IMG/VR virus record: IMGVR_UViG_3300020048_003367
Span: 37,863-101,862 of that record
Reading direction: 5' to 3' (one strand)
Source of the DNA: a virus
Length of the DNA stretch: 64,000 bases
Part shown: positions 3,478-36,777 of the stretch, piece after piece
How the letters are laid out: the number at the start of each line of letters is the position of its first letter
Position numbering within the stretch: position 1 is the stretch's first letter
Translations under genes and position numbers: made by a program
The notes under the pieces: generated by a model
What the model saw: the letters and a program-made list of their open reading frames with translations, nothing else
Databases searched by the model: none
Told to the model about the DNA's origin: nothing

Positions 3478-4272
3478 TTACTTGCGCATCTTTCTCAACA
3501 GCGTCATACCTGGATCAAAGTTCTTGCTCCAAGCCAAACTTTCAACAGTGGCCTTGCCCATGATTTTATCATATGCAGGATCAGTTGGTAGAATCTTTTG
3601 TCCACCAATTGTGATTGGTTGTTTTGGAGCAGCCGGTGTAACTGGAACTTTTGTAGCAGCCGGTGTAACTGGTTTGAATGAAGTAGTAACTTTGCCATAT
3701 CCGCCAGGGCCGGCAAAATTAGGAGTCTTTGCCGGTGCTGCTGGCTTGGCATATTTTTCCATACCGGGCATTTTCATTACATTGGCTGCATTGAAGCCAG
3801 CAGGTTGGGCAGCAGTAGCTGCTGGCATTGCCGGTTCTCCTTGACTTTTACGGTAACTGTTTACCTGCTGTAGTTCTGCTGCAGACAATGCCGGGCCACC
3901 TTGTAAGCTTGCAGTAGCTCGCTTTAATAAATCAAGTGATGGTTCAGCAGTTGCTGCTGGTTGTGCAGCAGGCTTAGTGGCGCTTGGGTACACCTGTTGA
4001 TTAGGATTCAATGGACTTGCAGCATGGCGCACTCCCCTGCCAGTTGCAATTGTTGCTCCGCCTGTGCTGGTTTGTGATTGTCCTCTTGCAGCTAGTTGTC
4101 TTGTCATGTTACCTATAGACGAAGCTGGGGCTATATTTGGTTCTGTATCTGTAACAGTTGGTTCATCAGCAGGAACTGGTGCTGGTGCCGGTTGCGACAT
4201 TACAGCATACGGATTATTAGTGTAACTGTTGTTACTACGTTTTGGAAAACCAAATAACTCATTTACTATCAT
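3478..4272 (-). CDS. Pro/Ala-rich putative internal virion protein
   Basis: 264 aa low-complexity ORF with MIVNELF N-terminus. Confidence 0.6.
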   Translation of the reverse strand: MIVNELFGFPKRSNNSYTNNPYAVMSQPAPAPVPADEPTVTDTEPNIAPASSIGNMTRQLAARGQSQTSTGGATIATGRGVRHAASPLNPNQQVYPSATKPAAQPAATAEPSLDLLKRATASLQGGPALSAAELQQVNSYRKSQGEPAMPAATAAQPAGFNAANVMKMPGMEKYAKPAAPAKTPNFAGPGGYGKVTTSFKPVTPAATKVPVTPAAPKQPITIGGQKILPTDPAYDKIMGKATVESLAWSKNFDPGMTLLRKMRK

Positions 4273-12470: not shown

Positions 12471-13019
12471 TTATTTAGCACGGCCTCGCCTCATATTCGC
12501 CTGCCATCTGGCTAGCTGCGCTTTACGTCCTGAGCCATTGCCTATTTTATCTAACTGTGCCATTGAGGCGTGCTTTGGGATACCGTGACGCTTGCTGTCG
12601 CCCTTGTCTTGTGGATTCTTACCATCTGCAAAGTTTTCATTCAGGTGTGTGAGCGCTTGTTCAAGTCCAGGATGCAGTGGGCTAGGCCATTCACCAGGCT
12701 CTACCCAGCACCAATCTTTGCTTTCGTAATTGATCTTGGGCTCAAACTCTTCGGGGACTCTGGCAACAAATGTTGCATACCTAGAGTTCTTGTGCAGCGG
12801 TTCCAGCGTCATGTTACCGGTGTATCCACCTTCTTCCTCAAGCTCTCTACGCACAGCTTGTTCCAGCGTTTCGCCAGGTTCAACACCACCACCCCATGCT
12901 GCCCAAACACCTGGATCATCCACTGCATCACTGCGTTGTTGAAAGCACCAGCGGCCAGTGTCTTCTGCTACGATTACGCAGCCAGCTGATTCGGGTTGTG
13001 TAAATTCTTGTGCTCTCAT
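12471..13019 (-). CDS. Nudix hydrolase with basic C-terminal module, putative internal protein
   Basis: Nudix box GGGVEPGETLEQAVRRELEEEGG; MRAQEF N-terminus. Confidence 0.85.
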   Translation of the reverse strand: MRAQEFTQPESAGCVIVAEDTGRWCFQQRSDAVDDPGVWAAWGGGVEPGETLEQAVRRELEEEGGYTGNMTLEPLHKNSRYATFVARVPEEFEPKINYESKDWCWVEPGEWPSPLHPGLEQALTHLNENFADGKNPQDKGDSKRHGIPKHASMAQLDKIGNGSGRKAQLARWQANMRRGRAK

Positions 13020-13495
13020 GCTATAGCTTTTTTTATACGTTGCCAAACACTGGGAGGAGTAGATGGTTTAACAGGGGTAGCTGGCTCAGGTGGTTGTTTA
13101 ACACTACCAGACAATCCCTTCCACATGCTTTTTCCCATGTCAGTCTGCAATTCACTAGGACGAATATCATTACCAAGACTATTGGCATATTGATACATTA
13201 CTTTAGACAAGCCTTGTCCTCTGTTGGCAGGATTTACATAAGTGTAAACAGATTCAAGATATTGTTCGCCATCTTCCTTGCGAGACTTGACAAGAAAATC
13301 TACCCAGGCCAATTCTTTTTTTGTTTGTTGATCAAACAACTTGACATGCAAGACATCGGCGGTGTGAGATCCGTACTGTCGTGTTTCCCCTGAGCTGGTA
13401 AGTAACCACTGGGCCCCTACCAATTGCTGATCTTTAAAACCAGTTTTTGTAGTATCAGGATTTATTTTTTCTCCGACAAATTCTTCAGCTCGCAT
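13016..13495 (-). CDS. GNAT acetyltransferase, putative internal protein
   Basis: YVNPANRGQGLSKVMY acetyl-CoA motif A; MRAEEFVGE N-terminus. Confidence 0.75.
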   Translation of the reverse strand: MRAEEFVGEKINPDTTKTGFKDQQLVGAQWLLTSSGETRQYGSHTADVLHVKLFDQQTKKELAWVDFLVKSRKEDGEQYLESVYTYVNPANRGQGLSKVMYQYANSLGNDIRPSELQTDMGKSMWKGLSGSVKQPPEPATPVKPSTPPSVWQRIKKAIA

Positions 13496-16400
13496 TATGG
13501 CTCCATCACAGGCGCAACTGTAACACCGCCCTGCATGGCACCTGGGTGTTGTCTCAACCAGTCCATGGCCACACGGTTAGCATCACTTTGTACATTACCT
13601 ATACCCGAGAATCGGTGTATTTCGTTGCCCTGTGGATCAAGAATTTGCCATGTGCCACGGAATGTCTGCTGCGGCTGTCCAGGACGAGTCAGGGTTTGCG
13701 GCGCTGGTGCTGTGCCAGGTGCCACGTCAACAATGCCACCTTGTGCCGCGTCAGCAGATGATTGACGCTGACGTTGTAGATCGATTGTGCTGCCTGGAAT
13801 AGGTTCGCTGGCAGTTTGACGAGTTCTCACACCATATAGTTCTGGAGCTTCTCCACGCAGACCCAGGACAGTAATAGCTTCTGCTTCTGCTCCGGCCCTG
13901 TTAGTATGCTCTAGTTCTCTTACAGCAGTGTTGTCGCTGCGTCTATAAATTTGCCATGGTCCGGGTCCGGTTGGCACTAGGTTACGTTGCTGTACTGGGC
14001 GGCCTACTGGTGCGCCCAGTGCTTGATAGTCTGCAGGAATTTCACGAACTTCAATGTCGCTTCGCATGTCTGATCTCTCTGCACGAGTGTTTGACAAGAA
14101 CTGTTCAGCAGCTTCACGACTTGGAAATCTGCGCAACACACTGTGGTCCAATTGCCCGGGAGATCTAACAAAGCGGTCTGCATTAGTTATCCAGATACCC
14201 CAGTTGCCAGTGCCCGGTGCAGCAGCAGGCTTTGGCTCAGGTTCTTCGTATGGTCGCAACATTGTGACTTTGGCTATGGCCAATTGTGATTCTGGAACAT
14301 TCCATTCTTCGGCAGCAACTTGACGTGCTACCTCTTTGGAACCAGCAACAACTTCCATTCTTCGGTTGGCGTCCCATTGAACATTCCACCAATATTTTTG
14401 TCCTGCTGGCGTTTTACCTTTGGCAAAATTTCGTGCCAATTGCTTTTCACGCACCTGACGGATTAGTGCAGCTTTGTCTAGCTCACCGGCCGAGTAGTTG
14501 GCAAACAGTTGTAGAATATCCGGGCCACCTTTTTCTTGCGAGCCTTCCAGCAGCTTGTATAATTTTTTCAAGTATTCTTGACGATATGCTGCAGGGTCAA
14601 TAGCAGCACTCAAGGCCACTGTAAATCTCATAAGTGTGTCTTCAATCTTGCTGAAGTTTGAGTCTAACCAATCACCACCCGGACTACGAAACTCGATGTA
14701 CCCAGTCTTGGTATTAATACTGGTGTACTTGTCAGTGATACCTGTGTGGATGGCCTTGGTAGCAAGGTCTTCCATGTGCTCACGCATCTTGCTCATCACC
14801 TGAGGAGCAACATCGGGATTCTTTTGCAGCATGCCTTTGATCTTGCTGATTGCTGATTTAGCATAGGTGTTGCCTGAACGATCAAACAATTCCAACACAT
14901 ACTCGTCGCCCATGAGCAAGGCCAGTTTAACATAGTCCAGCTTTTCAAGACTATAGTTAGGCACTGAAATGTTAATGTGCAAGCCAGTGCTTTCGTTGGT
15001 ATAGCAACCAGTCTTGTCTGCCCAAGCCTTGACCTTGTTCAGATCTGAGATCATTTCATCTATGGGCATGGGAGGACTCACAAACTCTAGACCTTCATCA
15101 CCGGGATTGTCGCCTTGCAAACTGCCGTCGGGTTCCACCACATAAGTTCCTGCTTCTCGACGTCCACCATGATACTGCCTGCTGGCGTTGACTGGCTTGC
15201 CCATATAACTGGAGAATTCGTCAGCCACTTGATCTATGTCTGCACCTTCGCGGTCAGCGTTCATGTCAGTGTAATAAGGCCATGAAATATCAAAGCCGTT
15301 TTCAATGTCAGTCATGCGGGGATACTTGTCATCCAAGAAACTGCGTTCGTCGTATTCGTCTCTTTGCTCGTCGGAGAACGCTTCAAATGCGTCATCGTAG
15401 ATACGGCCTTGACTTTCGAGCTCGCTAGCAGCAAACTCACGTTCCATCTCGTCTAGTCTGGCACTGATAAGTTGTTGGAAGTCTTCACTTTCTTGTGGTA
15501 GGTCGGGGTTGGCGTCCATGATCTCATCTCGAGCCTGAGCCATGGCTTCATCACGATCAAACAAGTCATTGAGTGAAATATAGTCCGTTATGAACTCTAG
15601 GCCATCGCGGGCCCACGATTCAGCAGTTTGCTCATATTGCCACTCTTGAAATTCGTTTTGTATTTCTTCCAACAAATTATCTGCATCGCGACGAGTGTTG
15701 TAGTCACCATCATGGAAGAAGCTTCTGATGTCTTCAAAGCTTCTGGTGCGTGTATCTTGGTCGTAGTCAGCTTCGTAATCAGGCTCTTGTTCATCAACCC
15801 CAACATCAGGCACAATCATTTCAAATTCCATGCCTGCTTGTGCGCCAGTTCTAGCAGCTTCGGCTCGCAGGTTTTTGCCAGTCATTTTGATTTCGCTCAA
15901 GTACTCAGTTTCCAACAGTGCGAATTCTTGACGAAGGCTTTCGGCCAGTTCTTCTTGAAAACTTTCTGTCACAGCTACATTTCCCATTCTAGCCAATTCG
16001 TATGTAACTAGATTACCACTATCTGCTCTGTATGCTCGATAGCCCCATGCTTTGCTATAACGCTGAACTAATCTATCATATAACTTAGCACGACTTTCAG
16101 GATTTGGCTGAGGCTCACCTGGTTCATAATGAATAGTTGGATCAGTTTCTTTGCTTGCCGAGAACGTCAATCTTGCGGGTTTGTACTCTTTGACATATTG
16201 TTGAATAGCAGATAATACTGTAGCAAAAATACGCGTTGCGTCACCTTCACTAGTAACTTCTTGACTATTGTTTCTATAAAACTCGACTTGAACAGCTTCA
16301 TCACCTTCATCATTTGTCTGTTTATTGAACATGATGTTTAGTGGGCCCCCGTCCGGTAATCTAGCCAATGCGTCAACATCGCCATACGCAGTCTTTTCCC

Positions 16401-18141
16401 ATGTGAAAGGGTATGGTTGGTCAAATGCTTCATTAACATTGTAGGTGGGATCTGTTTTCTGACGAGGCATACCCGGCGGTTGATTGGGATCCTTGGGATC
16501 AATGTCGGTGGTTGTTAGTCCGGTGGCTTCGAGATCCTTGATGTATTTGTGCTCAGTGTCTTCGTCACCAAAGCTCAGTATGGCACTAGGAGGACCTGCA
16601 CCAAAGTCATGCTTGCCGAGGCCTTTCATGTTTGAGATATGCTGGCCTAGCTTGTACCAGTCATACACATCACTAACATCAACTTTTACTGTGCCTGCTG
16701 GCATTGTAGGCGGAGTCTCTGGACCTAGAGGTTCATTTAGATCACGATACTGACCTGGCCCTTGACTCAGTTGCGGCATCTTTGCGCCGTCTTTGAACTC
16801 ACGTAAAGCATTTTTTAGGCTCTTGATCAACAGTGCAGGCTTGCCTTGTGCATCTGTTTGCAAACCCATTTTGTTGGCTTCTTTACCTGTTTGACCAGGA
16901 TGCACATCCACACTCAGTGCTGTCTTGAAACGTGGATCATTCTTTTCAGCAGAGGTAGGAATATAGCCAGAACTTTCTTCAATCTGGCTCATGTCAAAGT
17001 GATCAGGGTGAGCATCAGCCCAGTCACGCATAATCACTCCTGCCATTGCATTAGCTTGGTTCTCCCACTTGCTACCAGTCTCGCCTGCATTGTCGGGTAA
17101 TGGACTTAGCTCATTTTGACGGCAGTGTGCTAGTTCATGCGCAGTGGTACGTAGTATGTCCAGCAAGTGTCTGTTGATTAAGCACACATGCAGTTCATTG
17201 GTATCAGGTTCGTAACGACCAAAGCTGCTGTTCTCTTGGCTCCAGCCATCATCACGATGCAGGTTCACCCGGGGCACTTTTCGGATATCCAGTTTCTTGG
17301 CAGTTTGTGCAATAAAATCACGCACCACGTTTTCAGAGTCTACTTCACTCAGGAACATCTTGGTTTCGGGACTGACACCATTAGGGCTACTGGACTCGCC
17401 AAATCCATAACGCACAGACTTGCGAGGTGTTTCTAATTCTTTAAGGCTGAGTTCACGATCCTTGGCATTGGCTCTAGCTGTGTACAGTTGCTCAATCAAG
17501 CCTTGAGTACGCAACATCTTGAACGCAAGATTCTCAGGACCAAATTCACCATGTGCATCAAGTCCAGCTTGACGCATGGTTTTAATCTTGGCAATCAAGC
17601 TGCCGATACGGTCAGCATCATCTGCTGCCAGGGCAGATTTAATGCGTTCACGCAAATCTTCATACTTGTGACGCACTAGATTCTGATCAATTGCAGCACG
17701 TTTTCTGCGTGGTACTTGAATCCACTCGTTGTTCTTGATGCTGTACTCGCCTAGACTTACCGGAGTCTCTGCAGCATCTTGTACATATAACTCAACGTCT
17801 GCGCCACGAATACGAATGTCATGAGAATCGTTAAATTCGTATTTCTTGGCATTGAATAACTCTCGGTACACTGGATCGGGAGGTATATCTACTACCAAAT
17901 GCAAATCGATATCAGAGTGTTTTGTGTATGAATAAGCTGCGTTCGAGCCAGATATGGTAATATCTTTAACTTTTAGATTGTCTAGTCCTAAAAACTCTTG
18001 AAAATATTCGGCTATTTCTAACAGCTTGGCCTGGACTTCCGGACGCAGATGCTCGTTGGCATCCCACAAACCGGGGTTGAGCCGGTTGTGGAATTTTACT
18101 GCGTCAGCAAGGTTGTAAGTTGACAGTTCATTAAAGTTCAT
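13495..18141 (-). CDS. polyvalent protein: nucleotidyltransferase + HExxH metallopeptidase + amidoligase-like domain
   Basis: GSNA...SDIDLH; TAHELAH; GMEFEM, EPDGSL, LEFVSPP, GLHINIS, YIEFRSPGG. Confidence 0.8.
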   Translation of the reverse strand: MNFNELSTYNLADAVKFHNRLNPGLWDANEHLRPEVQAKLLEIAEYFQEFLGLDNLKVKDITISGSNAAYSYTKHSDIDLHLVVDIPPDPVYRELFNAKKYEFNDSHDIRIRGADVELYVQDAAETPVSLGEYSIKNNEWIQVPRRKRAAIDQNLVRHKYEDLRERIKSALAADDADRIGSLIAKIKTMRQAGLDAHGEFGPENLAFKMLRTQGLIEQLYTARANAKDRELSLKELETPRKSVRYGFGESSSPNGVSPETKMFLSEVDSENVVRDFIAQTAKKLDIRKVPRVNLHRDDGWSQENSSFGRYEPDTNELHVCLINRHLLDILRTTAHELAHCRQNELSPLPDNAGETGSKWENQANAMAGVIMRDWADAHPDHFDMSQIEESSGYIPTSAEKNDPRFKTALSVDVHPGQTGKEANKMGLQTDAQGKPALLIKSLKNALREFKDGAKMPQLSQGPGQYRDLNEPLGPETPPTMPAGTVKVDVSDVYDWYKLGQHISNMKGLGKHDFGAGPPSAILSFGDEDTEHKYIKDLEATGLTTTDIDPKDPNQPPGMPRQKTDPTYNVNEAFDQPYPFTWEKTAYGDVDALARLPDGGPLNIMFNKQTNDEGDEAVQVEFYRNNSQEVTSEGDATRIFATVLSAIQQYVKEYKPARLTFSASKETDPTIHYEPGEPQPNPESRAKLYDRLVQRYSKAWGYRAYRADSGNLVTYELARMGNVAVTESFQEELAESLRQEFALLETEYLSEIKMTGKNLRAEAARTGAQAGMEFEMIVPDVGVDEQEPDYEADYDQDTRTRSFEDIRSFFHDGDYNTRRDADNLLEEIQNEFQEWQYEQTAESWARDGLEFITDYISLNDLFDRDEAMAQARDEIMDANPDLPQESEDFQQLISARLDEMEREFAASELESQGRIYDDAFEAFSDEQRDEYDERSFLDDKYPRMTDIENGFDISWPYYTDMNADREGADIDQVADEFSSYMGKPVNASRQYHGGRREAGTYVVEPDGSLQGDNPGDEGLEFVSPPMPIDEMISDLNKVKAWADKTGCYTNESTGLHINISVPNYSLEKLDYVKLALLMGDEYVLELFDRSGNTYAKSAISKIKGMLQKNPDVAPQVMSKMREHMEDLATKAIHTGITDKYTSINTKTGYIEFRSPGGDWLDSNFSKIEDTLMRFTVALSAAIDPAAYRQEYLKKLYKLLEGSQEKGGPDILQLFANYSAGELDKAALIRQVREKQLARNFAKGKTPAGQKYWWNVQWDANRRMEVVAGSKEVARQVAAEEWNVPESQLAIAKVTMLRPYEEPEPKPAAAPGTGNWGIWITNADRFVRSPGQLDHSVLRRFPSREAAEQFLSNTRAERSDMRSDIEVREIPADYQALGAPVGRPVQQRNLVPTGPGPWQIYRRSDNTAVRELEHTNRAGAEAEAITVLGLRGEAPELYGVRTRQTASEPIPGSTIDLQRQRQSSADAAQGGIVDVAPGTAPAPQTLTRPGQPQQTFRGTWQILDPQGNEIHRFSGIGNVQSDANRVAMDWLRQHPGAMQGGVTVAPVMEP

Positions 18142-19113: not shown

Positions 19114-22047
19114 TTAAATTTTGCGACTGCTTTCTTCCATATAATCAGGATTTTTTGCCTGTTGTTGAATTTTGAGTTGCATATTATCAACTTTAGCAGT
19201 TAATTGTTTTAGCTTGCGATCATGGTCTTTGTCATTTTTCTCGCTGTGGCCCAAGCCACGCTGCACCCATTTTGCAAAGGCCATGTCCTCGTCGCCGCCA
19301 AATTCTGGATAATGTTGCTGTGCAAAGCGTCTAGCTTGAGTGAGTTCTGGATCAGTAGCCAGATCCACGCGGCTACTTTCATAGGTAGCGGCCCAGCCTT
19401 GATTTTCGTCAACTGGTTTGTCTGCTAGTGGGCCACCTGTTACCCAAGCATCGCAGGTTCTACGACTGGCACATTTGAACTTCAGGAACTTGCAGTAGCC
19501 CAAGTCGCCAGCATCAATTACGCCTTCGGCATCTTCGGGACTGCTACTGTCAATACCTTGTGCAATGCAGTCCAAGGTGTCTTGACGAATGTCAAATGCT
19601 GCACAGTTGCCGCACAAGCTGCTTTGTGCTTCTTCCATGCTGTCCAGATTCCACTCATCAACTTTTTTCATCCAGAACTTGGTGTTGGGCAAGTCTGGGT
19701 TGAGTGGGCCGTATCCGTATTCGTTGATGGCTTTTTGTCTGTTGTTGAGATTCAGTGTGATATCTTGTGTGGCAGGTGGACACTTCTTGGCAGCTTCTGT
19801 CATGCCTTCATCATACTTGGGCATTGGTCGTTGCCCAGGGCGGCCTTTAACTCCACGCTTCTCTGTGCTTGGTGGTTTTGTTGGAGGAACAATATCACCC
19901 TGATTTCTAAATGGCTGCGGAGCCTTCTTAGGATTGCGGATATGGATAGGAGCCAGTGGTACTACAAAAGGAGCGCCTTCCGCCACACCTTGTTGACCTT
20001 CATATATCAAACTATCTATACGTTTATATTTAATATTAAACGCATTCATTAATAATTCAACTTCTCGTAAACATTGATCTCTAGCACCGCCCACTAGGTA
20101 AGCACCGTTAAATCTTTTTAATTGTGCTACACTGGTCCAGTTTACTGACAGTGGTTCATCATTTAATTCTTCCATGGCTCCTTGAATCAAAGACTGCTGT
20201 GTCGTGCGTTTGTTGAATGGAGGAAACTGCAATTCTCTGCTGTCGTTTTTGTGTTGTTGATATAACTCACGTATGGTAGCAATAATAGTAGACGGTTCTA
20301 TGCCAGCATCCATCCAGCCACGGAAGTATCCATAGCCCTTGTCCACTATTTGAAAACGGCTCCAGTTAATAGGATTGGTGTCGGGGTCATTGTCATACCA
20401 GTCTGGATCAATGGTATCTTCCCAGTATGTTTGAATCGCAGCCACAGTATCACCGCTGAGTCCTTGGTCTTCTGCGTTGACAAACATCAGCACTGGGCCT
20501 GTTTGTTTATTAACAAAATTAATAATTTGCGGAAACACTGCTGACTCGTCGCCGTCATTCATTCCCGAATATTCGGGCTGAACATCCACTACTATGACTG
20601 GATGTGCTAGACCTTCATTCAACGAGCCTTCCGCCACACCTTTCTCTACGCTTTCTTTAAATTCGTCCTTTGGTGCAGACTTATTCAAATTGTCAATAAT
20701 AGATTTGTGTGCTTTTATAAATGAATCCTCTCTTCGAGTCTGAACTTCAGGATCTCTTTTTCTAGCTGACTCGATTGTACTAACAATAGCACGATAAGCA
20801 TCATTTACAAATTCTTTATTGTTGTTATTTTGAATATATTGATTTAATGTATCTTTGACTTGTGTATGTATTTCAGGATTAGAGTCTTTTGAAATTATGT
20901 ATAAAGTTAATGCTAAGTTTAGATTGGCATATTCGGGAGTAAAAATATCTTTCGCTCCAGAACGTTGCTGTTGAGCCTGTTGTTGTGGTTGCGATTGTTG
21001 TCGAGAACGTCCAGCTTTTGTATACTCATTGAGTTTTTGTAAAATTGCAGCCGTGTAAGCATCCATAAAAGTGTTTGCTGTGCTTATAGCAGTCTTTGCG
21101 CCTCCACGATCTGTAATAGACGGAGGCACTGCATCAGCGGCACGATAAGCCGAATCGGTAGCATAATCAATTACCTCTAATACATTATAGCCATTGGTGT
21201 CCATACAATACGCCAATACAGCTTTGTTTACATTCTGTGCAATGTAGTCCATTATTCTGCTTTGCTCTCCACCAAATTTAACTGTGAAAAACTTTCCGAT
21301 TGCAGTTTGTGCTTTTTGAACAGCAATACGGGCCGCAACGTCGAACTTAACCTCTTGAGCCTTAGCACCACCAGCTGCACCTGCTACTGCCGCTGCACCC
21401 ATGCCCTTTAAGAATCCTCTACGGTCTATTTCTGATAAGGAGCCTTCCGCCACACCTTGCTCACCACCAATAGCAGCGTCTAACAGTTTGACCACTGTAG
21501 CAGCTAACTTGGCGTTGCCTTGCGCTTTAGGGTACAAGCTCATCACAAGAGCTGTTTTGCGGCGGTCGTCTAGACTGGGCCATGCACTACGGATCTGTGT
21601 AGCTGACGTCATGCCTGGACCAAACTCCACTGTGGGCAAGTAGGCCATGTAAGCATGTTTTGCAAATGGTTCTAACTTTTTGGCACCCAGCAAAGGCTGC
21701 AAGTAGCTAGGTGAGCCGTCTTTTTTAACACCACCGGGTAGTGGTTGCGACTTGGCGTCTTTTTCTGAACGAACAAAGATCAAGGTGTCTTGTTCGGGAT
21801 TGTACTTGCTGGTAATTTCAGCAGCACGAAATGGTGAGCTTACTTGTACAAAGTGTCCAGCTTCTACACCGGCCAATTTGGCCAGCTTTTCTTTTACAGC
21901 AAACGGAAAAGGTCTTGAACTGGTATCATTGGTTGCAGCAACATACACCTCAGCGTTGGGGAAAGTTCTTTTTGCGCTTTGATAAAGGGCATGGTGCCCT
22001 GCGTGGTAGGGATGGAAACCGCCCGGCATGATTACAATTGTGGTCAT
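19114..22047 (-). CDS. modular polyprotein: HxGH nucleotidyltransferase, Tat-signal cassette, isochorismatase-like cassette, Cys-rich domain
   Basis: PGGFHPYHAGH; DRRGFLKG; VIVVDVQ...VGGARDQC; CGNC...C...C...C; three GVAEG repeats. Confidence 0.8.
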   Translation of the reverse strand: MTTIVIMPGGFHPYHAGHHALYQSAKRTFPNAEVYVAATNDTSSRPFPFAVKEKLAKLAGVEAGHFVQVSSPFRAAEITSKYNPEQDTLIFVRSEKDAKSQPLPGGVKKDGSPSYLQPLLGAKKLEPFAKHAYMAYLPTVEFGPGMTSATQIRSAWPSLDDRRKTALVMSLYPKAQGNAKLAATVVKLLDAAIGGEQGVAEGSLSEIDRRGFLKGMGAAAVAGAAGGAKAQEVKFDVAARIAVQKAQTAIGKFFTVKFGGEQSRIMDYIAQNVNKAVLAYCMDTNGYNVLEVIDYATDSAYRAADAVPPSITDRGGAKTAISTANTFMDAYTAAILQKLNEYTKAGRSRQQSQPQQQAQQQRSGAKDIFTPEYANLNLALTLYIISKDSNPEIHTQVKDTLNQYIQNNNNKEFVNDAYRAIVSTIESARKRDPEVQTRREDSFIKAHKSIIDNLNKSAPKDEFKESVEKGVAEGSLNEGLAHPVIVVDVQPEYSGMNDGDESAVFPQIINFVNKQTGPVLMFVNAEDQGLSGDTVAAIQTYWEDTIDPDWYDNDPDTNPINWSRFQIVDKGYGYFRGWMDAGIEPSTIIATIRELYQQHKNDSRELQFPPFNKRTTQQSLIQGAMEELNDEPLSVNWTSVAQLKRFNGAYLVGGARDQCLREVELLMNAFNIKYKRIDSLIYEGQQGVAEGAPFVVPLAPIHIRNPKKAPQPFRNQGDIVPPTKPPSTEKRGVKGRPGQRPMPKYDEGMTEAAKKCPPATQDITLNLNNRQKAINEYGYGPLNPDLPNTKFWMKKVDEWNLDSMEEAQSSLCGNCAAFDIRQDTLDCIAQGIDSSSPEDAEGVIDAGDLGYCKFLKFKCASRRTCDAWVTGGPLADKPVDENQGWAATYESSRVDLATDPELTQARRFAQQHYPEFGGDEDMAFAKWVQRGLGHSEKNDKDHDRKLKQLTAKVDNMQLKIQQQAKNPDYMEESSRKI
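19977..21457 (-). repeat. three copies of the 14-bp direct repeat CTTCCGCCACACCT
   Basis: exact copies at 19977, 20628 and 21444. Confidence 0.95.
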
Positions 22048-23038: not shown

Positions 23039-23692
23039 TCAAGTATTTATACGCTGAACAATAGGCACAGTCTTTCTAAAAGGCCTGGGCATGATCAGAG
23101 CCAGCATGGTAGCATACACAGGATCGTCATAGTCTACATAGTAGTGATCCGGGAACCAGTGCTTGCCGGGCCAGGAGCCTTTCAAAAACTGCTTCATTCC
23201 CGGGCTAGGTTTTATAGCAGTGCCTTGTGCGTCAAAGAACTCTCGAAGAGCCGGAATCTTGTCTCCAGGAAATTGTTGTGCTTTGAAGTAGCTGCGTAGT
23301 TTATGCGTGGGCTCTAGTAACAGCACAGTGTCGCGTGGCCGATCAATCACAGCTTGCTTGATTCTTGCGTTACATACAAATGCACAGTCCGCAATCAAGT
23401 TGTCAGCCAGAGCGGGTGTGTTTGTGTAGATTGTGCCCCAGCTACCCGACACCATCAGTTTGAACGGTTCTGTGATACTGTTGATGTGGGCCAATGCAGT
23501 CTGTAGATTCGGCACAACATCGCCGGAATACCGAGCCTGGCTCGTCCAGCTCATTCTAATACTAATATAGTCGTTAAACTTTACGCTATCACGAATCCTG
23601 AGAGTATGTGCTTCTTTCAAAAAGAAACTAAACGCATACTCCCACTTGTCAAAGTACAGCCGATCGCGGCTTTCAGTTTTGAGTGTCAACAA
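23039..23692 (-). CDS. hypothetical protein
   Basis: long ORF downstream of clpA; start uncertain. Confidence 0.6.
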   Translation of the reverse strand: MLTLKTESRDRLYFDKWEYAFSFFLKEAHTLRIRDSVKFNDYISIRMSWTSQARYSGDVVPNLQTALAHINSITEPFKLMVSGSWGTIYTNTPALADNLIADCAFVCNARIKQAVIDRPRDTVLLLEPTHKLRSYFKAQQFPGDKIPALREFFDAQGTAIKPSPGMKQFLKGSWPGKHWFPDHYYVDYDDPVYATMLALIMPRPFRKTVPIVQRINT

Positions 23693-28467: not shown

Positions 28468-29604
28468 TTAGCAGTTCCACTTGCGCAGGGCCAGGGCCTT
28501 GCGAGTTGGTTTGCCGTTGGGTTTTTTCATTGGTCCCTTGACGCCCGACATTCTTGCACAGAATGATTTGCGGCGCTTGGCTGCTTTTGATCCTGGCTTG
28601 AGTTTGCTTGGCTTGGTGGTCACGGCCATTTGTAATTTGCTGCCAGGATTCTCTCTGCGATAGCTAGCAACGCCTTTGGCATTTAGTCCACCCTTGGCGC
28701 TCTTGCCTGCTTTGCGGCGCCATGCGGCGGTTTCGAATAGTATTTGATCGTCTAGTCGTTCAAGTGTTTCCCATACTTGATCAACGCTGACTTGATCTTC
28801 TTGTGCCAGTTCTTCTGCTAGTGATTCCATGGCTTCAAACATCTCGTCAATTTCAGGATCTACTTCTTCTGAGTCTTCTTCACTCTCCATGTAATCCCAA
28901 ACAGCCACCAGCATTGACTTGGCCACTGCAATCTTTTCTTGACACCATTCGGGCAAGTTGTCACCGGTTTGAATTAGATCATCAATGCCTGCTACAGCAC
29001 GTTCCAATGTTTCAAGATTGTTGTCGGCCATGCCTGCTTCGTCATTGTATTCGGCGTTGTAGCCTTCCGACACGGATTCATCCCATTGTTTCTTTTCTGC
29101 GTAACGTTCCATGTCGTCTACTGCTTTTTGTCCGTAACGGTCTTTTACGTATTTTCTAATGTTTATCAAAATGTCGCCGCTTTTGTTTATCTGTCTGACA
29201 TCAGGATGGTTACCGCGTCCTGCCTGCAAATGTTTGCTGTATCTGTCCCAAACTTTCCTAAGACTGTGATCGTCGCCTTCCGCCACACCTTCTTTTTGAT
29301 AGTGATTTTTGAATAATGAATTACATTTTGGACAACGATCTTGTTCCGGAGTTGCAGCAAATGTTCTCAAACCAACACCAGTATCTCTACCAGGATGATC
29401 TGCTAAACCATGTTTAGGTGTTTTTAGATGAACTTTATCGCCGGAGCCTTCCGCCACACCTTGCTCTACTGATTCAGCAGGCACACAGTTGTTGACTCTG
29501 ACCCCGCCCTTGACCTTGGTCTTGGGGTTGCCAATCTTTTTGCCTGTCCAGCATTTGGGGTCCAAGCGAACTTTTTCTTCGGTTTTAATTTCGTTAAATT
29601 TCAT
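28468..29604 (-). CDS. modular putative internal head protein (CW..G..VNNCV module, GVAEG cassette, basic C-terminal domain)
   Basis: MKFNEIKTEE N-terminus; two GVAEG repeats; AAWRRKAGKSAKGGLNAKG...RRKSFCARM...ALRKWNC tail. Confidence 0.7.
   Translation of the reverse strand: MKFNEIKTEEKVRLDPKCWTGKKIGNPKTKVKGGVRVNNCVPAESVEQGVAEGSGDKVHLKTPKHGLADHPGRDTGVGLRTFAATPEQDRCPKCNSLFKNHYQKEGVAEGDDHSLRKVWDRYSKHLQAGRGNHPDVRQINKSGDILINIRKYVKDRYGQKAVDDMERYAEKKQWDESVSEGYNAEYNDEAGMADNNLETLERAVAGIDDLIQTGDNLPEWCQEKIAVAKSMLVAVWDYMESEEDSEEVDPEIDEMFEAMESLAEELAQEDQVSVDQVWETLERLDDQILFETAAWRRKAGKSAKGGLNAKGVASYRRENPGSKLQMAVTTKPSKLKPGSKAAKRRKSFCARMSGVKGPMKKPNGKPTRKALALRKWNC
29277..29461 (-). repeat. two copies of the 14-bp direct repeat CTTCCGCCACACCT
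   Basis: exact copies at 29277 and 29448, 171 bp apart. Confidence 0.95.
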
Positions 29605-33624: not shown

Positions 33625-34359
33625 ATGAACACCAAAATTTTTAACCTAATTACAAAAAATTTGCAAGAGGCATTTAATTTGCCCAAGTATGCAAATATTT
33701 TGATTGACGCAGATACCGTGGTCAATTCATTACCGTGGACCCCGGCACGTTACTCAAAGTTCAAGGATGCAGTAGAAGCAGAGCTTGCTTTGCCTTGCGA
33801 GTATCGCGGAACACTGAAAGAAATTGTTGCGGATCTAAGCGAGCGTTATACGCATCGTTTCTTTTCAGAGATTTGGCGTCCAAGAACAGGTGAGTATGAT
33901 CACTCAGGTTGGGCCTTGGTAGAAGAAGTCAACAAGCTGAACCCTGAACGGGTCTTGGATGTAGGCTGTGGATACCACCCATTCAAAGGACGTATCAACA
34001 ACATCACTGGCATTGATCCCTACAATGACGCTGCTGACTATGAAGTTGATATCTTGGACTACAAGGTAAAACCTCAAAGTCATGATGTTGTGATTGCCCT
34101 GGGCAGTATCAACTTCAACAGCAGAGATGAAATTGAACAGCGTTTTGCTCACTGTGTGGAATTGTTGAAACCTGGCGGCAAGTTCTTTTTGCGAGCCAAC
34201 CCAGGTATCTCACACAAGACAGGTCCGTATGTGGATATCTTTCCTTGGAGTTTTGAAGTTGTGAATGACTTTGCTGAAAAGTACAATCTGCGTTTGGACA
34301 CATTCAAAAAAGAACCTACCGAACTGGGTAGGTTGTATTTTGTGTATACTAGACTTTAA
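33625..34359 (+). CDS. class I SAM-dependent methyltransferase with small helical N-terminal domain
   Basis: VLDVGCG, GIDP, LKPGGK. Confidence 0.85.
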   Translation: MNTKIFNLITKNLQEAFNLPKYANILIDADTVVNSLPWTPARYSKFKDAVEAELALPCEYRGTLKEIVADLSERYTHRFFSEIWRPRTGEYDHSGWALVEEVNKLNPERVLDVGCGYHPFKGRINNITGIDPYNDAADYEVDILDYKVKPQSHDVVIALGSINFNSRDEIEQRFAHCVELLKPGGKFFLRANPGISHKTGPYVDIFPWSFEVVNDFAEKYNLRLDTFKKEPTELGRLYFVYTRL

Positions 34360-34715
34360 CGCCCAGCCACTGCTAGTGCAGCACCTTTGTTGAAACTGGG
34401 GCTGTACGGGCTAGTGCCTGAACTAAGGCTATTACGCTTGCTCCAGTCATATCCTGCTCTATGACCTGAGCAGTCCTTGGTACATTGTGATCCTAGAAAG
34501 CTGAGTTCTTTCAGTTGTTCACGTGTCCATTTGTCGGGGATCACACCGTGTTTGGCCACAAACTTGTCGTGTAGTTGTTTGCCAGTGATACCGTGATCGC
34601 GGGCAATGGTTTGCATCATGTGATCAATTGCGCTGTAACTTTTGGGATCATCAAGATCTTTTTCAAGCTTTTCCACAGCGCCTTCTTTCAAATATGCAAA
34701 CTCGCTGGCTCTCAC
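34356..34715 (-). CDS. putative internal head protein
   Basis: MRASEFAYLKE N-terminus; CTKDCSGHRAGY module after LKE. Confidence 0.65.
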   Translation of the reverse strand: MRASEFAYLKEGAVEKLEKDLDDPKSYSAIDHMMQTIARDHGITGKQLHDKFVAKHGVIPDKWTREQLKELSFLGSQCTKDCSGHRAGYDWSKRNSLSSGTSPYSPSFNKGAALAVAGR

Positions 34716-34819
34716 ACCGTTTCCTTTAGCTGACGACGATACTCTGCTAGTGCCGCTGTTAATGACTCTGCTTCAATGATATAGGTCTTGTCACCTGACT
34801 TGAATGTGTATGTTCTCAT
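34712..34819 (-). CDS. 35 aa hypothetical protein (absent from ORF track)
   Basis: MRTYTFKSGDKTYIIEAES...; overlaps both neighbours by 4 nt. Confidence 0.5.
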   Translation of the reverse strand: MRTYTFKSGDKTYIIEAESLTAALAEYRRQLKETV

Positions 34820-36777
34820 TTTTTAGGTTGTTGTGCTGTGGGTACGTTACGATACACACGCTTGTTGGGATCATATACTGTTTTCATGGGGCCAGCACCA
34901 GCCAATTGCTTGAGGCGGGCCATTGCTGCATCAAAACGATCAGCGTCCATGTTTCCAACTTTTTCGCCTTCGTCCAAGCCATCAGTTTGTGTAGCACCTT
35001 CGCCGTCGGCATCAAAAGCTACCATTTCTACTTTGGGCCACATACGTGCAGGCACATACAGAATACCCGAAGTTTCGTCATGATCGATCTGGTCGCCAAA
35101 GCGAGCCATTACTGCATTGTATGCCCGTTCACTGTTGACGCTAAAGCCCACGGTGTCAGTATCGTCGATACCGCTGTATCCGCCTTCCGCCACACCTTGA
35201 TCGTCTTTGTTCGCCACCTGGCCATAGCCGCGCTGTCTCATTTCACGGTCAATTACTTTATCAACAAATGCTCCCGCTGAATTTTTTCTTGGCTTTGATT
35301 GGTCTTTTCTTGATGCGACAAAATTTGCAAGGCGTTGTCCGTCCATGTTCTTAAATGCCGACACTGCGCCTGACGGCGTAACCATGTCAGGTGCAGCACC
35401 TACGCCCCAACCTTGTGAGGCACGCTTGATGCCTTTTACAACATCACCGAAGCCTTCCGCCACACCTTGCTTTGGTTTGTATTTCTCTGCTTGCTGTAGA
35501 TGATGTTCCTTGGCTCTGCCTTTAGAGATTTTAGCGGCAGATAAATGATGGTGATATAACTCATCTCTACTAGTCGGTACGCCTGGATGTTGATCCAAGC
35601 CTTCCGCCACACCTTTGATAGTATAGTCTGGACGACTGCGACCTGTTTCTTGATGTAGGTCTTTGAGTGCTTCTATGGCTTCTTCCCTACTGTCGATAAA
35701 ATCATATCCACGGTCTGCACGATAATGAAAGGCGCCCCAACTATTACCATCTTGGTAAATCTCACCAACTGGCTTGCCATTTTTTGACTTGATTACTTCT
35801 GCGTTGGGGTAGATAGTATCGTTCGAGCCTTCCGCCACACCTGTTAATTTTGGTCTTTTATTGCCCAATGGTGAATCGCCGCGGCGTTGGACAATTCTGT
35901 ATGTTCCCATGCCTGTGTCTTCAACATCGGCACCATACATAGTAGCAATTTGTCTAGCAATCTTTTTATCATTAATAGTCACTAACTGCGGACCAGAGCT
36001 GTCTCCGCTAGTGTTCATCAAGTCGTGTAGATAGTTATACTCGTCTTCGCCATACTTGCTAGGTCTGAAATCACCTCTCCGAACTCTGGTATGATATCCT
36101 TCTTTGTCTGTGTCTTCCGCCACACCTTGCTCATTCATGGCCTCCCAATCTTCGTGACTGATGTAGAAGTCACTGTCAGGATCGTAGTATTTGCCTTCTT
36201 GCTTGTCGTAGTACACAACTTTACCACTCTTGGTATGGAATGGACCTTCTAGTCCCGGGCGCTCTGTATAACGTTCTCGATCAATATCAGGAACAACTTG
36301 ATATCCTTCTGCTACAGACTTTTCCCGCATGGCAGCACGAACTTCTGCACGAGTCTTGCCGTACTTGCGCTTAAACTCTTCTTCACTCATGGTTTTGTCT
36401 CGAAGATCTTGACTCAACTCTTTGACTTTACCTTCGGTGACCTGTTGTTCGCCGGGGCCATACGCAGTGATCACGATGTTGCCCCGAAGTTCGGGCTGTT
36501 GTTTCAACAATTCCAACGCTGCTGCATTGGCTGCTGCTTTGCCAGCGAATGCATCACTGATATGTTCTTGTGAGTCTTTTTGCTTGAGCCAGAAACGTCC
36601 AGTCTCGGCATACTGCTGGCGAGAATTGTTGTCAGCACGAATTCGTGCATCAATTTCTTCACTGCCAGCAGGCTCACGTTCACGTTCCAGTCGCCCACGT
36701 TGAGTGGCGTCCATACTTTGTTGTTCTGGATCTGTGTGCCAGTTAGTGCCTTCGTTGAATAATTGATTGAGTCTCAT
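34816..36777 (-). CDS. modular putative internal head polyprotein with five GVAE repeats
   Basis: MRLNQLFNE N-terminus; short unrelated modules separated by GVAE(G/D). Confidence 0.75.
   Translation of the reverse strand: MRLNQLFNEGTNWHTDPEQQSMDATQRGRLEREREPAGSEEIDARIRADNNSRQQYAETGRFWLKQKDSQEHISDAFAGKAAANAAALELLKQQPELRGNIVITAYGPGEQQVTEGKVKELSQDLRDKTMSEEEFKRKYGKTRAEVRAAMREKSVAEGYQVVPDIDRERYTERPGLEGPFHTKSGKVVYYDKQEGKYYDPDSDFYISHEDWEAMNEQGVAEDTDKEGYHTRVRRGDFRPSKYGEDEYNYLHDLMNTSGDSSGPQLVTINDKKIARQIATMYGADVEDTGMGTYRIVQRRGDSPLGNKRPKLTGVAEGSNDTIYPNAEVIKSKNGKPVGEIYQDGNSWGAFHYRADRGYDFIDSREEAIEALKDLHQETGRSRPDYTIKGVAEGLDQHPGVPTSRDELYHHHLSAAKISKGRAKEHHLQQAEKYKPKQGVAEGFGDVVKGIKRASQGWGVGAAPDMVTPSGAVSAFKNMDGQRLANFVASRKDQSKPRKNSAGAFVDKVIDREMRQRGYGQVANKDDQGVAEGGYSGIDDTDTVGFSVNSERAYNAVMARFGDQIDHDETSGILYVPARMWPKVEMVAFDADGEGATQTDGLDEGEKVGNMDADRFDAAMARLKQLAGAGPMKTVYDPNKRVYRNVPTAQQPKK
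35184..36127 (-). repeat. five copies of the 14-bp direct repeat CTTCCGCCACACCT
   Basis: exact copies at 35184, 35454, 35601, 35829 and 36114. Confidence 0.95.

What the first reader, a model, noticed from the sequence alone, without database searches (positions are those of the whole stretch)
20628..21457. Hidden internal twin-arginine (Tat) signal peptide at the start of a cassette
Seen: directly after GVAEG-SLSE, about 200 aa into the protein, lies IDRRGFLKGMGAAAVAGAAGGAKAQE. This has an RRxFLK motif, a hydrophobic h-region and an AKA peptidase site. The 272-codon cassette looks AT-richer than its flanks. Established: Tat signals work at N-termini and export folded proteins. Inference: cleavage at VAE or LSE in the capsid would expose the signal, so a pre-folded injected protein could be routed to the host periplasm or membrane (e.g. 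for superinfection exclusion).
Basis: partly seen in the sequence, partly recalled or inferred. Interest (0 to 1): 0.78.

Follow-up and report, generated by a model that had tools for sequence, protein, structure and literature searches.

The report
Buried Tat signal in phage polyprotein
A 977-residue modular protein of an uncultured giant T4-like phage carries a complete bacterial Tat export signal about 200 residues inside it, directly behind a head-protease-type cut site; dozens of related phage proteins keep this layout, which suggests (untested) that cutting unmasks an address sending this piece to the host periplasm.

Summary
ORF 19114-22047 (-) has four unrelated modules joined by an exact 15-nt GVAEG linker. 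Module 2 opens with SLSE-IDRRGFLK, a Gly/Ala-rich h-region and AKA|Q. It passes NCBIfam TIGR01409 and falls 0.8 bits short of Pfam's cut-off.

Among 62 proteins examined, 57 carry this signal and RR never varies. About half carry it at the N-terminus and about half carry it 50-1076 residues inside. A hydrophobic-x-Glu site always lies 3-4 residues before RR. Two relatives place a periplasmic TonB C-terminal domain behind the internal signal. One relative of the cargo domain has a lipoprotein signal instead.

The clade has T4-like head genes, including a gp21-type protease, in a close relative. It also has many T4-CTS-like N-termini. Stand-alone copies of module 3 replace the linker with a 9-residue CTS-like peptide ending at the same x-E|G boundary.

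Best reading: proteolysis at the linker unmasks a functional Tat signal. Cleavage inside the capsid followed by injection is plausible but unproven. This protein itself lacks a CTS-like N-terminus.

Rivals are an internal signal that works without upstream cleavage (FecR-like), and a relic left by cassette fusion.

This scan has already noted the same layout on seven other phage genomes. I found no published description.

The parts
19114..22047 (-). 977-aa modular ORF (P0001): four modules joined by three GVAEG linkers
21457..22047 (-). Module 1 (aa 1-197): cytidylyltransferase-like nucleotidyltransferase with an HxGH motif and no CTS-like N-terminus
   Evidence: TIGR00125 26.5 bits, just below its 27.7 cut-off; PF01467 E=6.7e-4. 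Orthologs are 92% identical in G001 and 80% in G003.
21442..21456 (-). Linker 1: exact 15-mer GGTGTGGCGGAAGGC coding GVAEG (aa 198-202); VAE is a putative Glu-specific cleavage site
   Evidence: 9 exact in-frame copies of the 14-mer core in the window against 0 expected. 14 of 15 GVAEG sites use the exact 15-mer in loci found by protein search.
21430..21441 (-). SLSE (aa 203-206): second hydrophobic-x-Glu site; cutting after E206 would leave IDRR... as the new N-terminus
   Evidence: Every internal and N-terminal homolog has [LIVM]-x-E 3-4 residues before RR. The same boundary logic holds for module 3.
21358..21429 (-). Tat signal core: IDRRGFLK (aa 207-214), h-region (aa 215-227), AKA (aa 228-230); predicted signal-peptidase cut between A230 and Q231
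   Evidence: TIGR01409 22.4 bits against a 16.7 cut-off. RR, FLK-G, AAA, A and Q are invariant in alignment A1. pLDDT is below 50 for this stretch, so it is not part of the fold.
21004..21345 (-). Cargo helical bundle 1 (aa 235-348)
   Evidence: AF2 model, helices 33-146 of the module. Homolog P0047 carries this domain behind a lipoprotein signal peptide. P0048 joins it to a TonB_2 domain.
20938..21003 (-). Gln-rich disordered spacer (aa 349-370)
   Evidence: pLDDT below 50 for module residues 146-164
20677..20937 (-). Cargo helical bundle 2 (aa 371-457); the AT-rich part, 32.8% GC
   Evidence: no PDB fold match
20614..20640 (-). Linker 2: GVAEG (aa 470-474) plus SLNE (aa 475-478)
   Evidence: Stand-alone homologs of module 3 have a 9-residue CTS-like peptide ending ...LNE|G at this position.
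19990..20613 (-). Module 3 (aa 479-686): highly conserved alpha/beta domain of unknown function, usually a stand-alone gene
   Evidence: 852 homologs. AF2 pLDDT 82.9, no clear PDB match.
19975..19989 (-). Linker 3: GVAEG 15-mer (aa 687-691)
   Evidence: In the G001 ortholog the NTase is joined through one linker directly to the sequence that follows this linker.
19117..19974 (-). Module 4 (aa 692-977): Cys-rich domain
   Evidence: tblastn to phage genes annotated as high potential iron-sulfur protein, 48% identity, E=5e-34. No Pfam support. The stand-alone homologs have no signal peptide.

Best explanation
P0001 is a polyprotein built from exchangeable cassettes. Cassette 2 begins with a genuine twin-arginine (Tat) signal peptide. 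That signal is masked in the primary product by the 202-residue nucleotidyltransferase module.

Proposed steps (all inferred):
1. A Glu-specific protease cuts at the linker, after VAE202 and/or LSE206. This produces a fragment whose N-terminus is (GSLSE)IDRRGFLK....
2. The host Tat translocase exports the folded two-bundle cargo to the periplasm.
3. Signal peptidase I trims it after AKA230.
4. Cutting at the next linker keeps modules 3 and 4 out of the export.

The most likely protease is the clade's T4 gp21-type prohead protease. In that case cutting happens in the capsid and the piece arrives in the next host along with the DNA.

Shown: the sequence features, their conservation, the cassette structure, periplasm-type cargo in relatives, and T4-like head genes and CTS-like N-termini in the clade.

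My odds: genuine Tat signal about 0.85; unmasking by proteolysis about 0.6; cleavage in the capsid plus injection about 0.35.
For: 1. The signal passes TIGR01409 (22.4 bits against 16.7). It has the n-region, h-region and c-region, and the h-region is weakly hydrophobic (KD 1.15, too low for a membrane anchor). AF2 leaves it disordered.
2. A phmmer search of 1.84 billion representatives gave 49 hits. With the earlier hits, 57 of 62 proteins examined carry the signal. RR is invariant, and an A-x-A-Q-type site follows the h-region in most; the A and the Q are invariant in A1. About 27 have RR at residues 8-20 and about 26 have it at residues 51-1076.
3. Mature domains have diverged to 25-37% identity while the internal signal is kept. 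In L106 the signal DNA is only 57/120 identical to the window's, yet the Tat features are retained.
4. Every copy has [LIVM]-x-E 3-4 residues before RR.
5. Cargo location: TonB_2 (PF13103) follows internal signals in L135 (E=2.6e-18, signal at about residue 672 of 1067) and in P0048 (E=2e-21). P0047 carries the same bundle behind a lipoprotein signal. Six Sec-like signals also sit directly after linkers in relatives.
6. Protease logic: T4 and giant-phage prohead proteases cut after Glu in short motifs (PMC5694885, PMC9026906). The T4 CTS is MKTYQEFIAE (PMC8442874). Clade N-termini of the type M-[KR]-x-x-[EQ]-[FIL]-[ILV]-x-E occur in 33/71 linker ORFs against 79/696 other ORFs (p=7e-12), and in 15/28 internal-Tat proteins.
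7. Module 3 stand-alone homologs carry such a 9-mer directly before the domain, and fused forms keep hydrophobic-x-E|G at the same boundary.
8. G001 (DNA polymerase 79% identical) has portal, core, S77 protease, scaffold and gp23 in T4 order. Its protease starts MKTLREQL, like the stand-alone Tat proteins.
9. Modules of opposite destination sit in one chain in arbitrary order: NTase and the basic DUF6321 alongside TonB_C. That only makes sense if the chain is cut.
Against: 1. There is no experimental evidence for any step.
2. P0001 and its orthologs start MTT[IV]V[IV][MI]PGG, with no CTS-like peptide. In T4, gp21 acts only inside proheads.
3. The 102-kb record (about 25% complete) holds no head protease. 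G003, the closest relative by polymerase (82%), gave no S77 or gp23 hit; it may simply lack that region.
4. Stand-alone precursors already have a working-length n-region (RR at residue 16). They could therefore be exported in the producing cell with no capsid step.
5. P0050 is an NTase-cargo fusion without the signal.
6. Cassettes 2+3 are absent from the G001 ortholog. The signal in this particular gene could therefore be too young to have decayed.
7. Pfam's own threshold is missed by 0.8 bits.
8. The host, and its Tat system, are unknown.
Confidence: 0.5

Rival explanations
1. The internal signal works without upstream cleavage, like a class V (FecR-type) Tat substrate but cleavable. Tat recognises the internal RR motif and inserts it as a loop. 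The NTase stays in the cytoplasm. Everything C-terminal is translocated and then released by signal peptidase at AKA|Q.
For: Internal Tat signals are documented. Class IV is the Streptomyces Rieske protein. Class V is FecR, which has a folded N-terminal domain on the cis side (PMC13673990; PMC5449189). NTase-Tat fusions recur in three phages (G000, G003/L132, L106), two of them without a GVAEG linker. This reading needs no capsid targeting, which fits the missing CTS.
Against: Known internal signals are uncleaved membrane anchors. Here the h-region is 13 Gly/Ala-rich residues (KD 1.15) followed by a conserved AxA site. Modules 3 and 4 would be co-exported, yet their stand-alone homologs carry no signal. 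In relatives the signal lies up to 1076 residues deep and is followed by basic DUF6321 modules. The invariant hydrophobic-x-E before RR is left unexplained.
Confidence: 0.13
2. The signal is a non-functional relic. A once stand-alone Tat-exported gene was captured into the polyprotein by recombination at the 15-mer, and in this position the signal is silent.
For: Cassettes 2+3 are a 1,467-nt in-frame presence/absence difference relative to the G001 ortholog, bounded exactly by linkers. The signal DNA is 90-96/120 nt identical in L131, L133 and L135, which suggests recent exchange. P0050 has lost the signal in an NTase fusion. Module 2 is AT-richer than its flanks.
Against: About 26 cluster representatives at 50% identity keep RR, the h-region and AxA in internal positions, while their mature domains have diverged to 25-37% identity. 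L106 keeps the Tat features with diverged DNA. Periplasm-type TonB_2 cargo sits behind internal signals.
Confidence: 0.15
3. The signal is unmasked by a protease acting in the infected cytoplasm, not the capsid. Candidates are the zincin-motif (HELAH) domain of the neighbouring 1548-aa polyvalent-type protein, or a host protease. The cargo is then exported in the producing cell during infection.
For: The neighbour at 13495-18141 has an HExxH motif plus Amidoligase_2 and NTP_transf_2-like regions. Polyvalent proteins are proposed to be processed by their own metallopeptidase domains (PMC5512222). P0001 has no CTS. The phage also carries Sec-signal proteins (porin-like, Bug-type) for export during infection.
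Against: The linker and the pre-RR sites match the Glu-specific T4-type motif and the end of the CTS (VAE, LxE). Linker ORFs are six-fold enriched for CTS-like N-termini. No specificity is known for the zincin domain.
Confidence: 0.15
4. The cassette is made as a separate protein by internal translation initiation at or near the linker (the GTG inside GGTGTGGCG).
For: The linker is conserved at the nucleotide level and contains GTG and purine-rich runs.
Against: No Shine-Dalgarno sequence at a usable distance is conserved upstream, and the sequence 5' of the 15-mer varies. There is no start codon at a fixed distance downstream. Linkers also occur 2-3 codons before stop codons in relatives.
Confidence: 0.03

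Closest known systems
Phage T4 internal proteins IPI, IPII, IPIII and Alt (capsid-targeting sequence removed by the gp21 prohead protease, protein ejected with the DNA)
   Same: Both have a short N-terminal peptide of the MKTYQEFIAE type ending in hydrophobic-x-Glu. The boundary regions are conserved while the cargo is hypervariable. The clade has a T4-syntenic head module with an S77 protease.
   Different: Here many cargos are chained in one ORF through a repeated VAE linker that is fixed at the nucleotide level. Some cargos carry a second address (a Tat or Sec signal) that is unknown for T4 internal proteins. P0001 itself lacks the N-terminal peptide.
Bipartite transit peptides of thylakoid-lumen Tat substrates
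   Same: A Tat signal lies behind another targeting segment and is exposed by a processing peptidase before the second transport step.
   Different: The upstream part in the thylakoid case is a transit peptide, not a folded enzyme or a chain of cassettes. The organism, the protease and the purpose all differ.
Class IV/V Tat substrates with internal signals (Streptomyces Rieske; FecR) (PMC13673990, PMC5449189)
   Same: The twin-arginine motif is not at the N-terminus. In FecR it is preceded by a folded cytoplasmic domain.
   Different: Those signals are hydrophobic, uncleaved membrane anchors. This one has a short Gly/Ala-rich h-region and a conserved AxA site, and it recurs up to 1076 residues deep.
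Polyvalent proteins of phages and conjugative elements (Iyer et al. 2017, PMC5512222)
   Same: Many unrelated domains sit in one phage polypeptide, and processing into separate units has been proposed.
   Different: P0001 has no peptidase domain. That paper has no occurrence of 'signal peptide', 'twin-arginine' or 'linker'. Here the joints are one fixed 15-nt sequence.

Membership tests
Tat (twin-arginine) signal peptide (TIGR01409 / PF10518) | Consensus [ST]-R-R-x-F-L-K at the n/h boundary | tested here: met
   D-R-R-G-F-L-K at aa 208-214. RR is invariant in all 57 homologs that carry the signal.
Tat (twin-arginine) signal peptide (TIGR01409 / PF10518) | Profile score above the curated threshold | tested here: met
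   TIGR01409 scores 22.4 bits against 16.7. Pfam PF10518 scores 21.9 against 22.7, just below its threshold.
Tat (twin-arginine) signal peptide (TIGR01409 / PF10518) | Weakly hydrophobic h-region followed by an AxA signal-peptidase site | tested here: met
   13-residue Gly/Ala-rich h-region with mean KD 1.15, then AKA|Q. The A and Q are invariant in A1.
Tat (twin-arginine) signal peptide (TIGR01409 / PF10518) | Located at the N-terminus of the translated protein | tested here: not met
   It starts at aa 203 of 977. About 27 homologs do have it at the N-terminus.
Tat (twin-arginine) signal peptide (TIGR01409 / PF10518) | Export depends on TatABC and on the RR pair | not testable with these tools
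   Needs a reporter assay in tat+ versus tatC strains.
T4-type capsid-targeted, gp21-processed head protein | N-terminal capsid-targeting peptide (MKTYQEFIAE type) | tested here: not met
   P0001 starts MTTIVIMPGG. The feature is met in 15/28 other internal-Tat proteins and in 33/71 linker ORFs.
T4-type capsid-targeted, gp21-processed head protein | Hydrophobic-x-Glu cleavage motifs at the boundaries of the mature part | tested here: met
   VAE202, LSE206, VAE473, LNE478 and VAE690. Stand-alone and fused homologs share the same boundary.
T4-type capsid-targeted, gp21-processed head protein | The phage encodes an S77 (gp21-type) prohead protease | tested here: inconclusive
   None in the 102-kb record, which is about 25% complete. 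Present in G001 (polymerase 79% identical; E=8e-25) and in G002. Not found in G003.
T4-type capsid-targeted, gp21-processed head protein | Protein present in virions in cleaved form | not testable with these tools
   Needs virion mass spectrometry.
Class IV/V internal Tat signal (Rieske, FecR) | Uncleaved, hydrophobic signal that stays as a membrane anchor | tested here: not met
   The h-region is too short and too polar (KD 1.15), and the highest 19-residue window in the whole protein is 1.02. An AxA site is conserved.
Polyvalent proteins (Iyer et al. 2017) | Several unrelated effector-type domains in one phage polypeptide | tested here: met
   Four unrelated modules.
Polyvalent proteins (Iyer et al. 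2017) | Peptidase (MPTase or other) domain in the same chain | tested here: not met
   No peptidase family hit in P0001. An HExxH motif occurs only in the neighbouring 1548-aa ORF.

The most novel reading that the evidence does not exclude
A two-step address code. Giant T4-like phages load chains of effector cassettes into the capsid. The prohead protease cuts them at fixed VAE / LxE joints, and this unmasks Tat (and Sec) signal peptides. On the next infection, ready-made phage proteins injected with the DNA are sent on to the host periplasm by the host's own export machinery. Examples of such cargo would be TonB-C-like domains or this two-bundle protein.
Probability: 0.3. Interest if true: 0.85.

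Novelty: new variant of a known kind. Interest (0 to 1): 0.7.

Why it matters
Tat signals are textbook N-terminal devices. A conserved class of them buried tens to more than a thousand residues inside phage proteins, always behind a protease-type site, would work as a natural reporter that these giant-phage polyproteins are cut at their fixed linkers.

It would also show that phages can pre-address pieces to the periplasm. If the cutting happens in the capsid, it would be the first case of injected phage proteins re-routed by the host Tat system. That would be a new layer of early host takeover, or of exclusion of competitors.

The idea is directly testable with simple reporter fusions, a recombinant protease assay and virion proteomics.

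Tried and rejected
- Megablast of the gene against 50,697 phage records found no match.
I could therefore not read the neighbourhoods of P0004, P0012 and P0015 on their 200-424 kb contigs.
- Foldseek against the PDB gave nothing meaningful for the module 2 model (best E=0.44) or for module 3 (best E=2.9e-3 with TM 0.29). My guess that module 3 is isochorismatase-like is therefore not supported.
- The ESM Atlas gave no usable hit.
- The 'HiPIP' annotation of module 4 homologs has no Pfam support. Those homologs have no Tat signal, so I dropped the idea that an Fe-S cargo explains the Tat signal.
- The T4 late-promoter motif TATAAATA occurs 3 times against 1.7 expected, so it is not informative.
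- There is no phage-encoded TatA in G000-G004.
- Internal translation start at the linker is rejected: no conserved SD sequence or start codon.
- Literature searches for GVAEG, for twin-arginine plus bacteriophage plus polyprotein, and for twin-arginine plus jumbo phage found nothing relevant.
Full report
**What is there**

The window is bases 37863-101862 of a 101,862-bp IMG/VR virus record that CheckV puts at about 25% complete, so it is a fragment of a roughly 400-kb phage. It encodes a T4-type DNA polymerase and clamp loader.

ORF 19114-22047 (-) gives a 977-aa protein, P0001. Three copies of an exact 15-mer coding GVAEG divide it into four modules:

| Module | Residues | Content |
|---|---|---|
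| 1 | 1-197 | cytidylyltransferase-like nucleotidyltransferase |
| 2 | 203-469 | the finding |
| 3 | 479-686 | conserved alpha/beta domain |
| 4 | 692-977 | Cys-rich domain |

The 14-mer core of the linker occurs 9 times in the window. All copies are on the minus strand, all are in frame, and they lie in three ORFs. None is expected by chance.

**The signal**

Module 2 opens with these elements:
- SLSE, then IDRRGFLK with RR at aa 209-210.
- A 13-residue Gly/Ala-rich h-region with mean hydropathy 1.15.
- AKA followed by Q.

It passes NCBIfam TIGR01409 (22.4 bits against a 16.7 cut-off) and misses Pfam PF10518 by 0.8 bits. It is the only such motif in all six frames of the whole record. P0001 has no membrane-span-like stretch anywhere. 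AlphaFold leaves the signal unstructured. The rest of the module folds into two helical bundles joined by a Gln-rich spacer, with no PDB match.

The cassette is AT-richer than its flanks (38.8% GC against 48.7% and 47.6%). This comes from its C-terminal half.

**Homologs**

A word-indexed search and an exhaustive phmmer search of 1.84 billion representatives gave 49 representatives.

- Of 62 proteins examined, 57 carry the signal, and RR is invariant in all 57.
- An A-x-A-Q-type site follows the h-region in most, and the A and the Q are invariant in alignment A1.
- About 27 have the signal at the N-terminus, with RR at residues 8-20. Most of these sit behind a conserved peptide of the type MKTLREYLDQLDE.
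- About 26 have it inside, with RR at residues 51-1076. These usually sit behind GVAEG-SLEE.
- Every copy has a hydrophobic-x-Glu motif 3-4 residues before RR.

The same signal precedes several unrelated mature domains. Its DNA is partly conserved as well, with 90-96 of 120 nt identical in three loci. In L106 the DNA has diverged to 57/120, yet the Tat features persist.

**Evidence that the cargo is extracytoplasmic**

- In L135, a 1067-aa polyprotein, the signal at about residue 672 is followed by a Pro-rich spacer and a TonB_2 C-terminal domain (E=2.6e-18).
- P0048 joins the signal, a module-2-type bundle and TonB_2 (E=2e-21).
- P0047 carries the bundle behind a lipoprotein signal peptide.
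- Six Sec-like signals also sit directly after linkers in relatives.

**Why cleavage is the likely key**

Prohead proteases of T4 and of giant phages cut after Glu in short motifs: L/I-x-E, A-x-E or S/A/G-x-E (PMC5694885, PMC9026906). The T4 capsid-targeting sequence is MKTYQEFIAE (PMC8442874).

In this clade, N-termini of the form M-[KR]-x-x-[EQ]-[FIL]-[ILV]-x-E are frequent:
- They occur in 33 of 71 linker-bearing ORFs against 79 of 696 others (p=7e-12).
- They occur in 15 of 28 proteins with an internal Tat signal.
- At least seven ORFs of this window have them.

Module 3 gives the clearest argument. It has 852 homologs, and most are stand-alone genes of 204-225 aa. These begin with such a 9-mer directly before the domain (P0063, 95% identical, is one example). 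Fused forms keep hydrophobic-x-E|G at the same boundary. The SLNE and SLSE that follow the linkers in P0001 therefore correspond to the end of a capsid-targeting peptide. Stand-alone and fused forms would yield the same mature N-terminus. For module 2 that N-terminus is IDRRGFLK....

G001 has 79% DNA-polymerase identity and 92% NTase identity to the window. It has portal, core proteins, S77 protease, scaffold and gp23-type capsid protein in T4 order. Its protease begins MKTLREQL.

**Cassette behaviour**

The G001 ortholog of P0001 is only 265 aa. Its NTase (86% nt identity) is joined through one linker directly to the sequence that follows linker 3 in the window (78% nt identity). Cassettes 2+3 are therefore a 1,467-nt in-frame presence/absence difference bounded exactly by linkers.

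G003 and L106 have NTase-Tat fusions with other cargos and without a GVAEG linker, but with LDE or IDE before RR. P0050 is an NTase-cargo fusion that has lost the signal.

The linker is fixed at the nucleotide level. More than 120 IMG/VR contigs carry the exact 15-mer. In loci found by protein search, 14 of 15 GVAEG sites use it.

**Verdict**

The signal is very probably genuine and under selection in internal positions.

The best explanation is that proteolysis at the linker unmasks it, after which the host Tat system and signal peptidase deliver the two-bundle cargo to the periplasm.

Cutting by the prohead protease inside the capsid, and hence delivery by injection, fits the motifs and the clade's T4-like head biology. 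It remains inferred, and three points count against it:
- P0001 has no CTS-like N-terminus.
- No head genes lie on this fragment.
- Stand-alone precursors could be exported in the producing cell.

The rivals are an internal signal that works without upstream cutting, as in class V substrates such as FecR (PMC13673990); a relic of cassette capture; and cytoplasmic processing, for example by the zincin-motif neighbour at 13495-18141.

**Status in this scan and in the literature**

This scan has noted the same layout on seven other phage genomes. I reached my reading before seeing those notes, and they are not independent evidence. Literature searches found no description of it.

Noticed in passing
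window 19975-19989, 20626-20640, 21442-21456, 29275-29289, 29446-29460, 35182-35196, 35452-35466, 35599-35613, 35827-35841 (-): The GVAEG linker is fixed at the nucleotide level (GGTGTGGCGGAAGGC). More than 120 IMG/VR contigs carry it, and 14 of 15 GVAEG sites use it in loci found by protein search. This points to a DNA- or RNA-level role such as recombination or gene conversion, in addition to the peptide.
   Followed up: partly
L148:1501-2298 (G001) versus window 19114-22047: The G001 ortholog is NTase-linker-module 4 start only (265 aa). Cassettes 2+3 (1,467 nt) are an in-frame indel bounded exactly by linkers.
   Followed up: yes
window 13016-13495, 12471-13046, 13495-18141, 28468-29604, 34356-34715, 34816-36777, 3478-4272 (all -): These ORFs begin with T4-CTS-like peptides such as MRAEEF.., MRAQEF.., MKFNEI.., MRASEF.. 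and MRLNQLF... In clade loci this motif is six-fold enriched in linker-bearing ORFs.
   Followed up: partly
window 13495-18141 (-): A 1548-aa polyvalent-type protein with an NTP_transf_2-like N-terminus, an HELAH zincin motif and Amidoligase_2 (E=3.5e-6). It is a candidate alternative processing protease.
   Followed up: no
window 19990-20613 (-): Module 3 belongs to a very conserved family: 852 homologs, with the 120 best listed at 62-95% identity. The fold is alpha/beta, AF2 pLDDT is 82.9, and there is no convincing PDB match. It is usually a stand-alone gene with a 9-residue CTS-like leader.
   Followed up: partly
L142:1216-1950 (Actinomycetia phage DSL-LC01): The module 4 homolog annotated 'high potential iron-sulfur protein' lies between a 3,290-aa ORF and the capsid maturation protease. 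The annotation has no Pfam support here.
   Followed up: no
L131:625-2526, P0044 and other loci: Sec-like (non-RR) signal peptides sit directly after linkers or x-T-E-G sites in relatives, six distinct cases. An example is a W-K-x-x-L-G-x-A-A-L-A-G-A-M-A type ending in AQA.
   Followed up: partly
L130:1447-2079 (G001): The gp21-type prohead protease begins MKTLREQL. This is nearly the same as the N-terminus of the stand-alone Tat proteins (MKTLREYL...).
   Followed up: no
window 23044-23051 (-): A T4 late-promoter-like TATAAATA lies 175 nt upstream of the gene run 22869 -> 13016 that contains P0001. Window-wide the motif is not enriched (3 against 1.7 expected).
   Followed up: no
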